DNA of 64,000 nucleotides from the human T2T-CHM13v2.0 reference genome, Homo sapiens. Positions 6,679 to 9,905 of the stretch are shown here, piece by piece. The translations under genes were made by a program, and so were the position numbers. The notes under the pieces were generated by a model. That model worked only from the letters and a program-made list of their open reading frames with translations, searched no databases and had not been told where the DNA came from. How positions within the stretch are numbered: position 1 is the stretch's first letter; each line of letters starts with the position of its first letter. The stretch is taken from the NCBI RefSeq assembly GCF_009914755.1, contig NC_060941.1, one strand, 5' to 3'.

Positions 6679-7343
6679 GTGGGTAATTAATCAGATAAAC
6701 ATTTTAGTTTATCACAGTTTTTCTTATCTCTTTCATTTGATTCTCATTGAGTACTATACGCTTCATGAAAGCAGACTGTATTTGTCTTGTTCACTGGTTA
6801 ATCTTAGCACTAAGCACAGTACCGTTAGATACTGATTGTTCCTTTTAGTTATTTAACATTTATTGAGTGGCCAGACACAGTGTCCCACACCTGTAATCCC
6901 AACACCTTGGGAGGCCGAGGCGGATCACTTGAGGCCAGGAGTTCAAGACCAGCCTGGCCAATATGGTGAAACCCCATCTCTACTAAAAATACAAAAAATT
7001 AGCCAGGCATGGTGGCACACACTTGTAATCCCACCTACTTGGGAGGCTGAGGAGTGAGAATTGCTTGAACTTGGGAGGCGCAGGCTGCAGTGAGCTGGGA
7101 TCGTGCATCTGCACTCCAGCCTGGGGGACAGAGTAAGACTCTCTCAAAAAATTGCGTATCTACTGTCTGGCAACTGTTGTGTCAAAGATTCTTGCCCCCA
7201 GGGAGTTCACAGTGTTAGGGAGAAGGAAAGGTGAATCCACTTAAATACAAATCACACTACAGTGAATATCGTGGTTTTGTTAGAATGTAGTGCTTCAAGA
7301 TTTATTTCCACTAAAATCTTAAAGAATATTCTACCAGAGTCTT

Positions 7344-7639
7344 GGCCAGGTACAGTGGCTTATGCCTGTAATCTCAGCACTTTGGGAGGCTGAGGCGGGT
7401 GGATCACCTGAGGTCGGGAGTTTGAGAGCAGCCTGACCAACATGGAGAAACCCCATCTCTATTAAAAATACAAAATTAGATGAGCATGGTGGCACATTCC
7501 TGTAATCCCAGCTACTTGGGAGGCTGAGGCAGGAGAATCGCTTGAACCTGGGGGGCAGAGGTTGCAGTAAGCCACGGTCGCGCCATTGCACTCCAGCCTG
7601 GGCAACAAGAGTGAAACTCTGTCTCAAAAAAAAAAAAAA
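7344..7639 (+). mobile_element. AluSp-like element
   Basis: ctgaccaacatggagaaacc and gggcaacaagag diagnostics; its 3' TSD is displaced to 9581-9600. Confidence 0.85.
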
Positions 7640-8189
7640 TGTATCTGCCCTTGACTAGTTTTCAACTAATGGCATAGATCATTCTATAAACAGATAATGT
7701 AGTAAAGGTTACAATAGAAAGTACAGGGTACTGTACAAAGGACGGATTCTAACCTGGCCCAGGTGAGCAGGATGAAAAGGAGGAAGGTTAGGGAAGGGAG
7801 TGTAATAGTCTGTCATGTTTCTTCCAGCTGTTTTTGTCATTTTCTATCACCCACTTAAGCAAGAGCTTCCTAATGTTTGGATCCACTCAGGGGTAATCAA
7901 ACTCAGCCTTTCTCAAACTCATGCCCTCAGCACACTATGATAAATCAGAAAGCAAATTTATAAATTTAGTGAGAATTACAGTTGTCAAGCAGAATGAAGT
8001 TTATGTTTTCTAGTCAGTTTATTTTCTTCCCAGATACCAGGAAGTTGGGAAAGCAGGGGTTCAGAGTTGGTAAGCAGAGAAGCAAATAAATGGAAATGGA
8101 TGCCCTCAGGAATATTATGCTTAAGTTGTGATAATTCTGATGCCCTCCTTGGTTTACTAGCAGAACGCCCTTTACCTTGGATATTGCTA

Positions 8190-8390
8190 GGATATTGTTC
8201 AATAGAATGGTCAGTTATGATAGAAGTGTTCTATGTCTGTGCTCTTCAGTACAGTAGCCCTTGCTACATGTGGCTATTGAGGCATTTAAAATGTGGCTAA
8301 TGCAGCTGTGGAATGGAATGTTTAATTGAATTTTACTTAAATTTAAATTGCACATGTGGCAAGTGACTGCCCTGTTGTGTAGTGCAGCAC
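8190..8390. mobile_element. MER3-like hAT-Charlie MITE
   Basis: ctacatgtggctattgag...aaatgtggcta...cacatgtggc motifs. Confidence 0.65.
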
Positions 8391-9184
8391 TGGATAAACA
8401 TAACTCCTGTGTTCTAGACTCCAATCCCACCATTAGCTTTCTGTTTTTGACAGTGTTTGCTAGTATGATAGGTCACTGCTCATTTTACATTACTATCAGT
8501 TTAGTTTCCTTTATATTTCAGAGGCTCCCTAATCCCTTAAAGAGATTTAAAAATCAACGTAGACCACTTCTGTATGAAAATAAGATGGCTGAATTTGCTT
8601 TGATTGGAATTAGGAACTGGCGCTCTCTTTGCTAGTTCTGGAATTTGGCCAGGATGCACATCAAAATCTCATTCCTACCCTCCTGATTTGCCTCATGCAA
8701 ACTTTGTTGCTGTGTCTGTTCTTTGGTCTTCTATTGCTGTGTCTCAGCTTTAGATTATATGTCTTGCGTAGAAATGGATCATCAGAATGCAACAGGCAGA
8801 AGACTTAGAATTGCAAATCAGTAGGGTAATGACAAACCCTTTGAGCTGAGTGGGACTGAAAAGTAACCTAACATATAACCTATTAGTAATTGTTAACCAT
8901 GAAGATTTTCAGTGCTGGACACATAAATTGCTGAGTTCAACTGCCCTCTTTGCCCTCCAAATCTAGCATAAAACAAATTGGTGATCTCAGGCCAGTTTCA
9001 CACCTAATATGACTAATAATAAAAGTCTTGTGTTTCAGGAACTCAGTTTGTCCAAACCTGAGCCCATCATCTCTACCTCACAAATTATATCCACCTTTTC
9101 ATTTCCTTGCACTGTGTCTGCATGATATGATAATACTCCCAAGCACTATTGCTTAAATCTTGAGTTACACTTAATGCTTTTTTT

Positions 9185-9568
9185 TTTGGTCTTTTTTCTT
9201 TTTAATGTGAAATAGAATATACAAATGAAAATGTATATTTAGAAGAACAATAATAAATGTCCAGGTGCCCATTGCTCAGACTGACAAATGGAACATTACT
9301 ACCCCCCAGGAGCCTCGTATGCTCTCCCCCCAAGAGGCAACCACTATCCTGAATTTTGTGTAATTGTCACCTAGCTTTTATAGATTTTACTGTCTGTGTA
9401 TCCCTAATAGTTGCTTATTTCTAGCCTTTATATAAATAGAATTATACTGTATATGACTGACAACTTTTGCTCATTATTATTTTTTGATTCATCCATGTTG
9501 ATGTGTGACACTGTAGTTCATTTCGATGACATGAATATGCCACAACTTAATTATATATTCTGTTGATG
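9185..9568 (-). mobile_element. Old L1M 3' fragment, truncated at 9568
   Basis: caaccactatcctgaattttgtg, ttcatccatgttg and ttctgttgatg motifs. Confidence 0.7.
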
Positions 9569-9905
9569 TCAAAAAAAAAAAAAGAATATTCTACCAGAGT
9601 TTTTACTTTTCTTCTGGAGGTCAGAAATACGTTAGGCTTGATGATATGGAAAATTGACACATATATGGACTCAGACAATAAAGTTTTCTAAAAGCAAATA
9701 GAGAATAATGATTTGCAGTATTTCCCTAGATAGGTAAAAACCTTGTAATCTCAGGATATTACTCATTTTCCAGGTTTTTTGAAAGCAAGTATACTTTCGT
9801 TATGTTAAATTAATAAAGTAAGATTATATTTGATCAGAGGCGTTCTGAGAAATGTATAACCAAGTCAGTAAGGCCATATACAGTTATTATGTTTTTTACT
9901 CTCAG

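What the first reader, a model, noticed from the sequence alone, without database searches (positions are those of the whole stretch)
7321..9600. 20-bp TSD encloses an Alu plus 1.9 kb of extra DNA: Alu 3' transduction or templated capture in RAD51C intron 6
Seen: aaagaatattctaccagagt occurs at 7321-7340, just before the AluSp and after tt (an L1-endonuclease-like tt|aaag site). It recurs exactly at 9581-9600, directly after a separate A-tract (9571-9583). The Alu's own tail (7626-7639) is not followed by the TSD. Between them lie 1.93 kb of old genomic sequence (L2-like, MER3, and an L1M cut off abruptly at 9568). No AATAAA lies just before the second A-tract. Inference: either a rare Alu-headed 3' transduction, or repair of a break in the Alu tail that copied another locus. 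The event accounts for about 70% of intron 6.
Basis: partly seen in the sequence, partly recalled or inferred. Interest (0 to 1): 0.75.

Follow-up and report, generated by a model that had tools for sequence, protein, structure and literature searches.

The report
Chr6 transcript retrocopy at Alu tail
The 1.9 kb behind this Alu in RAD51C intron 6 is an RNA-derived copy of part of a chromosome 6 gene that landed at the Alu's A-tail, which is an ordinary product of LINE-1 activity and not a new kind of event.

Summary
The 20-mer sits at 7321-7340 and 9581-9600, and these are its only two copies in the 3.1-Gb genome. It extends to 23 nt with one mismatch. It encloses a full-length Alu (7344-7639) plus 1.93 kb that ends in an A-run.

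The donor was found: chr6 29918762-29920667, minus strand, the only paralogue, with 5.9% substitutions. In the donor no Alu lies upstream of the copied block. The block lies downstream of a 187-aa ORF, so it looks like distal 3'UTR. The L1M-like sequence runs on past the copy's end, and there is no A-run there.

So the 1.93 kb is a 5'-truncated, polyadenylated, LINE-1-mediated retrocopy. Alu 3' transduction is refuted: the donor has no Alu, and the insert has 18 runs of T4 or longer, the first 20 nt behind the Alu tail. DNA-templated repair is unlikely.

One question stays open: one event or two. I favour two (about 0.6). The Alu inserted first and made the 23-bp duplication. The retrocopy later inserted into its A-tail, so its own duplication is all A. 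Two Alu pairs in this window show such tail insertions. The alternative (about 0.3) is a single-event Alu-mRNA chimera made by reverse-transcriptase template switching, a described class. Only primate orthologues can decide. Interest is low.

The parts
7319..7324 (+). LINE-1 endonuclease-type target site tt|aaag (nick between 7320 and 7321 on the opposite strand)
   Evidence: Sequence read. It matches the TT|AAAA consensus described in PMC2836564 with one A-to-G change.
7321..7343 (+). 5' copy of the target-site duplication (20 nt exact, 23 nt with one mismatch at 7341)
   Evidence: D7; only 2 copies in 3.1 Gb.
7344..7625 (+). Full-length Alu body, sense strand. It is AluS-like and shares 5 variant positions with 8-13 of 46 other local Alus.
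   Evidence: aligned with 46 other near-full-length Alus; it starts at the same first bases (ggcc) as the 20-21 copies that reach the 5' end.
7626..7639 (+). Alu A-tail, 14 A. In the two-step reading this also holds the all-A duplication of the second insertion.
7640..9570 (+). 5'-truncated retrocopy of a chr6 minus-strand transcript (G000:C6:29918762-29920667), probably the distal 3'UTR. Homology runs 7641-9570.
   Evidence: single paralogue, query 2-1931. (110 mismatches in 1874 ungapped columns, 11 gap openings).
9571..9580 (+). Poly(A) tail of the retrocopy (the A-run is 9571-9583). It is absent from the donor, which reads atttagttg here; the first A may be donor-templated.
9581..9603 (+). 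3' copy of the target-site duplication
   Evidence: (D7).

Best explanation
This is two ordinary LINE-1-driven insertions, one nested in the tail of the other. First, a full-length AluS element inserted by target-primed reverse transcription at a tt|aaag site in RAD51C intron 6 and made the 20-23-bp target-site duplication. Later, LINE-1 proteins reverse-transcribed a polyadenylated Pol II transcript from the chr6 MHC class I region. By position and from recall this is the gene antisense to ZNRD1/POLR1H. The priming was on the T-run opposite the Alu's own A-tail. Reverse transcription stopped early, so only the last 1.93 kb of the RNA (distal 3'UTR) was copied. Because both nicks of this second event fell inside the A-tail, its own duplication is pure A and cannot be seen. 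The Alu's older duplication therefore now encloses both elements. Shown: the duplication, the donor, the absence of an Alu in the donor, the non-templated A-run, and the continuation of the donor past the copy's end. Inferred: the order of events, that there were two of them, the name of the donor gene, and the date.
For: Donor and direction of copying. One paralogue exists in the genome, chr6 minus strand, covering query 2-1931. It has 5.9% substitutions (110 of 1874) and 11 indels. The donor runs on at both ends, while the chr17 copy is bounded by an A-run and the duplication.

RNA intermediate. The A-run 9571-9583 has no counterpart in the donor. The copy ends at ...gatgtc|a, and T/GT-rich sequence follows in the donor. 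The sense of the copy equals the sense of a 187-aa ORF 578 bp upstream of the copied block.

Endonuclease site and duplication.

Both flanks are single-copy in the genome.

Tail insertion is common, and it is seen locally. I picked 4 same-strand neighbouring Alu pairs by eye from the 47 Alus. Two of the 4 (26424-27015 and 12921-13494) show a second Alu inserted into the first one's tail, with a duplication made of tail A's plus flank. In both, the 5' Alu is the more diverged: 0.086 versus 0.043 and 0.091 versus 0.052 at non-CpG sites. One of the 4 has independent duplications and one is ambiguous.

Levy et al. 2010 (PMC2836564, passages read) report about 15,759-19,000 sense-oriented Alu insertions at the A-rich linker of other Alus, at suboptimal endonuclease sites, leaving 'very short (if any) TSD'.

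The upstream A-run of 14 (15 nt with the t at 7640) is close to the 15-16-nt inter-nick distance given there.

The Alu has 10 private non-CpG changes in 232 sites (4.3%; 15 mismatches, minus 5 shared by 8-13 of 46 copies). Half the retrocopy-donor non-CpG divergence is 2.7%. The lean is towards an older Alu.
Against: No sequence feature here separates two events from one. The Alu-versus-retrocopy age difference is not significant: about 6.3 changes are expected at equal age and 10 are observed, P about 0.1 by my own Poisson arithmetic, and less significant still if GC-rich Alu sites mutate faster. The duplication has only 1 mismatch in 23, which fits a younger Alu slightly better. In the two-step model the downstream A-run should at first have held the new poly(A), the all-A duplication and the rest of the Alu tail, yet only 10-13 A remain, so it must have shrunk. 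Both clear local tail insertions have duplications that run past the tail into the flank, whereas this case needs one wholly within the tail. The base rates I used (tail insertion a few percent, Alu chimeras about 0.1-0.2%) are rough estimates of mine, not measurements. No primate orthologue could be examined.
Confidence: 0.6

Rival explanations
1. A single event produced a bipartite Alu-mRNA chimeric retrocopy. LINE-1 reverse transcriptase primed at the tt|aaag nick on the poly(A) of the chr6 transcript and copied 1.93 kb. At an A-rich patch of that RNA (donor reads ...aataaagagaa just upstream of the breakpoint) it switched template onto the A-tail of an Alu RNA and copied the Alu to its 5' end. 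One 20-23-bp duplication then flanks the whole.
For: All five features listed for such chimeras in Gogvadze et al. 2007 (PMC2104539, Background section read) are met. The 5' part is full length. The 3' part is 5'-truncated. The two parts are joined directly in the same orientation. Direct repeats flank the whole. Law and Burns 2026 (PMC13174262, sections 10, 12 and 19 read) report 452 Alu/LINE-1 insertions of this build, mostly with full-length sense Alus and bounded by duplications of 7 bp or more. The A-rich donor patch at the breakpoint could supply microhomology for the switch. The short downstream A-run (10-13) needs no shrinkage in this model. The ages of Alu and retrocopy do not differ significantly.
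Against: The same final structure arises from insertion into an existing Alu tail, which by my rough estimate is several-fold more frequent. A jump onto the 3' end of a Pol III Alu transcript should also carry the unique sequence between the A-tail and the terminator, yet at most 1 nt (t at 7640) lies between A14 and the donor homology, so the jump must have landed inside the tail. The Alu leans older than the retrocopy (10 private changes against about 6.3 expected). This locus was not found in the 4 readable supplement files of Law and Burns by gene name or by approximate hg38 coordinates that I converted from recall. That absence is weak, because their screen starts from LINE-1 elements.
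Confidence: 0.3
2. Alu-headed 3' transduction: a source Alu was transcribed through its tail into 1.9 kb of downstream flank, and the whole RNA was retrotransposed.
For: The duplication encloses Alu plus flank, and the insert ends in an A-run.
Against: The only paralogue in the assembly has unique sequence, not an Alu, directly upstream of the copied block. The one Alu fragment in that locus lies about 1.2 kb beyond the copy's 3' end. The insert carries 18 runs of T4 or longer, the first at 7659-7662, 20 nt after the tail; that these stop Pol III is established knowledge.
Confidence: 0.02
3. DNA-level templated repair: a break in the Alu tail was mended by copying chr6 DNA (synthesis-dependent or microhomology-mediated), with no RNA involved.
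For: The insert sits exactly at the Alu tail. The breakpoint has A-rich microhomology.
Against: The copy ends in an A-run of 10-13 that is not in the donor. It ends at a point followed by T/GT-rich sequence in the donor, like a cleavage site, and in the sense of the upstream ORF. DNA copying predicts none of these.
Confidence: 0.04
4. The 1.9 kb is ancestral to the intron and the 20-mer repeat has another origin.
For: None found.
Against: The 20-mer occurs twice in 3.1 Gb, and both copies sit exactly at the borders of the Alu-plus-A-run unit. The block has a 94%-identical partner on chr6 that extends beyond it on both sides.
Confidence: 0.01

Closest known systems
5'-truncated processed retrocopy (processed-pseudogene fragment) made by LINE-1 in trans
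   Same: It has a donor on another chromosome, a poly(A) tail that the donor lacks, 5' truncation, and insertion at a T-rich endonuclease or priming site.
   Different: It holds only non-coding 3'UTR, so there is no intron loss to show. It has no visible duplication of its own, because it lies in an A-tail. There is no canonical poly(A) signal in the copy (hexamer scan) or, by eye, in the donor.
Nested target-primed insertion into A-rich tracts of existing Alus (Levy, Schwartz and Ast 2010, PMC2836564; passages read)
   Same: The insertion is in sense orientation. A T-run opposite an Alu A-tract serves as primer. The endonuclease site is suboptimal. The duplication is very short or invisible.
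   Different: That paper documents the internal linker hotspot and Alu-into-Alu events. Here the target is the terminal tail and the newcomer is a Pol II transcript copy. The local Alu pairs at 26424-27015 and 12921-13494 are the nearest analogues.
Bipartite chimeric retrogenes made by reverse-transcriptase template switching (Buzdin group; features as listed in PMC2104539) and Alu/LINE-1 chimeras (Law and Burns 2026, PMC13174262)
   Same: A full-length small RNA forms the 5' part and a 5'-truncated 3' part follows, in the same orientation, inside one enclosing duplication at an endonuclease-type site.
   Different: Single-event origin is not shown here. The 3' part is an mRNA fragment, not LINE-1. 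I recall that Alu-mRNA combinations were listed by Buzdin et al. 2003, but that paper was not held.
LINE-1 or SVA 3' transduction
   Same: Extra unique DNA lies behind a retroelement, inside its duplication, and ends in a second A-run.
   Different: The donor has no element upstream of the extra DNA. An Alu is a Pol III unit, and the extra DNA is full of T4 runs.

Membership tests
LINE-1-mediated retrocopy of a cellular transcript | A donor locus elsewhere whose sequence continues beyond both ends of the copy | tested here: met
   C6:29918762-29920667 (minus strand) is the only paralogue. Unique sequence lies upstream, and the L1M-like sequence continues downstream.
LINE-1-mediated retrocopy of a cellular transcript | A 3' poly(A) tail not encoded at the donor | tested here: met
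   The A-run is 9571-9583, where the donor reads atttagttg.
LINE-1-mediated retrocopy of a cellular transcript | Its own target-site duplication at an endonuclease-type site | tested here: inconclusive
   The only non-A duplication encloses the Alu as well. A duplication made of A's within the Alu tail cannot be told apart from the tail.
LINE-1-mediated retrocopy of a cellular transcript | Loss of introns relative to the donor | not testable with these tools
   The copy is collinear with one uninterrupted donor block. No chr6 annotation was available to say whether that block is a single exon.
LINE-1-mediated retrocopy of a cellular transcript | The 3' end coincides with a used polyadenylation site of the donor gene | not testable with these tools
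   No transcript data were available. None of 16 hexamers lies in the last 60 nt of the copy. The donor is identical over the last ~84 nt before the end, and I saw none there by eye. T/GT-rich sequence follows in the donor.
Bipartite chimeric retrogene (template switching) | The 5' part is a full-length copy of a cellular RNA | tested here: met
   The Alu starts at ggcc directly after the duplication.
Bipartite chimeric retrogene (template switching) | The 3' part is a 5'-truncated copy, and both parts are joined directly in the same orientation | tested here: met
   Only the A14 tail and 1 nt lie between the Alu body and the donor homology.
Bipartite chimeric retrogene (template switching) | The whole is flanked by one pair of short direct repeats | tested here: met
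Bipartite chimeric retrogene (template switching) | Both parts arrived in one event (never found apart in related species) | not testable with these tools
   No primate genomes were available. The divergence comparison was inconclusive.
Alu 3' transduction | The source locus has an Alu directly upstream of the transduced sequence | tested here: not met
Alu 3' transduction | The transduced stretch is free of Pol III terminators | tested here: not met
   There are 18 runs of T4 or longer, the first at 7659-7662.

The most novel reading that the evidence does not exclude
The Alu and the chr6 3'UTR fragment entered together in one target-primed reverse transcription, with the LINE-1 reverse transcriptase jumping from an A-rich patch of the mRNA into the A-tail of an Alu RNA. 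That would make this a well-preserved Alu-mRNA chimera with a known donor, an exact breakpoint and a 23-bp duplication. It would be useful as a clean test case for whether Alu-headed chimeras are real or are mostly tail insertions.
Probability: 0.3. Interest if true: 0.35.

Novelty: new member of a known kind. Interest (0 to 1): 0.15.

Why it matters
It matters little for biology. It explains why about 70% of RAD51C intron 6 is primate-added DNA, and it identifies an unannotated retrocopy of a chr6 MHC class I-region transcript. There is one methodological point. An outer duplication that encloses an Alu plus a second retro-element does not by itself prove a single chimeric event, because insertion into the Alu's A-tail gives the same picture. 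That caveat also applies to catalogues of Alu-headed chimeras that are timed only at coarse phylogenetic resolution. No effect on RAD51C is indicated: the hub's table lists no exon in 6679-9905.

Tried and rejected

2. Naming the donor gene.
- The 187-aa ORF has no Pfam family.
- 'HTEX4' gave 0 papers.
- 'C6orf12' matched only C6orf120 papers in the 10 listed of 125.
- Searching 'ZNRD1-AS1' with 'testis' listed 10 papers, none opened.
- One search listed POLR1HASP (ZNRD1ASP) as a lncRNA name (abstract seen).
- PMC2375005 names Tctex4 as an MHC class I framework gene between Trim26 and Mog (one passage).
- A TFIIS zinc-ribbon exon lies 5.8 kb away on the other strand.
- The equation of this donor with ZNRD1ASP/HTEX4/TCTEX4 is recall plus position. 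It is not shown.

3. Buzdin 2003 and Buzdin 2004 were not held, so their lists of Alu-containing chimeras were not seen.

4. Supplements of Law and Burns: 0 hits for RAD51C, ZNRD1 or ZNRD1ASP, and 0 hits for number prefixes near my recalled hg38 position, in the 4 xlsx files. Three PDF files could not be read.

5. I looked for an 'empty site' among paralogous repeats. Both flanks are single-copy, so there was nothing to compare.

6. I looked for other retrocopies of the donor's upstream part. There were 3 short matches of 37-58 bp and no retrocopy.

7. Dating the Alu against the retrocopy was inconclusive. The consensus was a majority rule over 46 mixed-subfamily Alus, not a curated subfamily consensus.

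8. A search for RAD51C + 'intron 6' + Alu listed 6 papers. By title and abstract none deals with this structure, and none was opened.

9. BLAST's 90% identity counts gap columns. The substitution divergence is 5.9%.
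Full report
**Observation**

The 20-mer aaagaatattctaccagagt is exact at 7321-7340 and 9581-9600 (0 of 100 shuffles gave any match). It occurs exactly twice in the 3.1-Gb assembly, both times here. With one C/T mismatch it extends to 23 nt, 7321-7343 versus 9581-9603 (D7). The Alu therefore starts at 7344, directly after it.

The 5' copy is preceded by tt, giving tt|aaag, a one-step variant of the LINE-1 endonuclease site (site as described in PMC2836564). 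The Alu body is 7344-7625 and its tail is A14, 7626-7639. The tail is followed by tgtatctgccc, not by the repeat. The second A-run is 9571-9583. The insert is 69-70% of the 3227-bp intron 6.

**The donor**

I searched the window's own genome with 7640-9570. That gave one long paralogue, G000:C6:29918762-29920667 on the minus strand, covering query 2-1931. The other 38 scored matches are short, at 72-80% identity, and all fall in query 553-770. So window ~8192-8409 is an old dispersed repeat.

A global alignment gives 110 mismatches in 1874 ungapped columns: 5.9%, Kimura distance 0.061, 8 of the mismatches in CpG context. There are 11 gap openings covering 88 columns. BLAST's 90% counts the gaps.

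Homology starts at 7641 (gtatctgccc against donor gtctctgccc) and ends at 9570, or 9571 if the first A is counted.

Upstream of the block the donor reads ...ctgaaggtgaataaagagaa. This is unique sequence with no trace of an Alu. The only Alu fragment in that locus lies about 1.2 kb beyond the copy's 3' end.

Downstream, the donor continues ...gttgatgtc|atttagttgtttccagtttttg. The L1M-like sequence that is 'cut off' in RAD51C therefore runs on in chr6, and there is no A-run there. The chr6 locus is thus the source, and the chr17 block is the copy.

**RNA origin**

Three things point to a polyadenylated RNA intermediate:
- The copy carries an A-run that the donor lacks.
- It ends at a CA followed in the donor by T/GT-rich sequence.
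- It lies in the sense of a 187-aa ORF (L002 3984-4547, minus strand) whose stop codon is 578 bp upstream of the copied block.

The block therefore looks like the distal 1.9 kb of a roughly 2.5-kb 3'UTR. None of the 16 poly(A)-signal hexamers I tested (list from memory) lies in the last 60 nt of the copy. The donor is identical over its last ~84 nt and I saw none there by eye. So the site would be a non-canonical one.

The ORF has no Pfam family. A TFIIS-type zinc-ribbon exon lies at C6:29926513-29926617 on the plus strand, 5.8 kb away. From recall I take that exon to be ZNRD1/POLR1H. I take the donor to be its antisense gene, ZNRD1ASP, also called HTEX4 or TCTEX4. Only fragments of this could be checked in print. 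The name is an inference.

**What is excluded**

Alu 3' transduction needs an Alu upstream in the donor, and there is none. It also needs a Pol III transcript to run through 18 runs of T4 or longer, the first at 7659-7662, 20 nt behind the tail.

DNA-templated repair does not predict a non-templated A-run at a cleavage-like site in gene sense.

An ancestral origin of the block is contradicted by the donor, by the exact placement of the duplication, and by the single-copy flanks.

**One event or two**

Two models give exactly this structure.

(a) Sequential. The Alu inserted first and made the 23-bp duplication. Later the retrocopy was primed on the T-run opposite the Alu's A-tail, with both nicks inside the tail. 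Its duplication is therefore pure A.

(b) Chimeric. A single reverse transcription switched template from the mRNA to an Alu RNA.

The locus meets all five features listed for bipartite chimeras in PMC2104539. It also resembles the 452 Alu/LINE-1 insertions of Law and Burns (PMC13174262). Model (a) predicts the same features.

*Evidence on frequency.* Levy et al. report 15,759-19,000 sense-oriented Alu insertions at the A-rich linker of other Alus, with little or no duplication. In this very window I collected 47 near-full-length Alus from 96 BLAST pieces. I picked 4 same-strand neighbouring pairs by eye.
- Two pairs (26424-27015 and 12921-13494) are clear tail insertions, with a duplication made of tail A's plus flank. 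In both, the 5' Alu is the more diverged.
- One pair has independent duplications.
- One pair is ambiguous.

*Evidence on age.* Against a majority consensus of the 46 other Alus, this Alu has 15 of 232 non-CpG mismatches and 15 of 38 CpG-site mismatches. Five of the 15 non-CpG mismatches are shared by 8-13 copies, so they are subfamily variants. That leaves 10 private changes (4.3%). Half the copy-donor non-CpG divergence is 2.7%, which predicts about 6.3 changes. By my arithmetic P is about 0.1. The Alu leans older, but not significantly. The duplication's single mismatch in 23 leans the other way.

*Evidence from A-run lengths.* The upstream A-run of 14-15 nt matches the usual inter-nick distance, which fits (a). 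The short downstream run of 10-13 A fits (b) more easily.

*Weighing.* My rough base rates are tail insertion in a few percent of events and Alu chimeras in about 0.1-0.2%. On that basis I put (a) at about 0.6 and (b) at about 0.3.

**Dating (inference)**

A divergence of 5.9% between copy and donor is about 3% per lineage. Against primate divergences that I recall, this places the retrocopy near the Old World monkey/ape split. The Alu is of that age or somewhat older.

**Novelty**

Both readings belong to described classes. My searches found no paper or supplement that mentions this particular retrocopy. Buzdin's lists and three PDF supplements could not be seen. The finding is a correct observation with an ordinary explanation. 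Its only wider use is as a reminder that an enclosing duplication does not prove a chimeric origin.

Noticed in passing
window 6333-6560 (antisense Alu) and 6869-7142 (sense Alu), around exon 6 at 6612-6678: RAD51C exon 6 is bracketed by inverted Alus. Arms 6506-6557 and 6946-6997 are 94% complementary over 52 nt, 388 nt apart; arms 6429-6510 and 6994-7075 are 82% complementary (I6 and I4). Such pairs can favour back-splicing or exon skipping.
   Followed up: no
window 26424-27015 and 12921-13494 (minus strand): Two tandem Alu pairs in which the 3' Alu was inserted into the 5' Alu's A-tail. In the first pair the flank motif (c)gagtctt(ct) occurs three times. In the second, gtttataa flanks the younger Alu inside an outer ataaagtcagctat duplication. 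In both, the 5' Alu is more diverged.
   Followed up: partly
L002 3984-4547, minus strand (G000:C6:29921245-29921808): An intact 187-aa ORF with no Pfam match lies 578 bp upstream of the copied block. A TFIIS zinc-ribbon exon lies 5.8 kb from the copied block on the other strand. This is probably the ZNRD1 antisense gene (name recalled).
   Followed up: partly
window 9119-9149, 8192-8215, 9221, 9331: The larger indels between copy and donor are these: about 31 bp present only in the copy (9119-9149), an 18-bp gap with poor alignment around 8192-8215, and 7-bp and 19-bp stretches present only in the donor. Which lineage changed is unknown without an outgroup.
   Followed up: no
window 53739-54322 (minus strand): A third tandem Alu pair. 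The outer flanks share attttaaaa, and the internal junction is A/T-rich (aaatttta). It is ambiguous between tail insertion and other origins.
   Followed up: no
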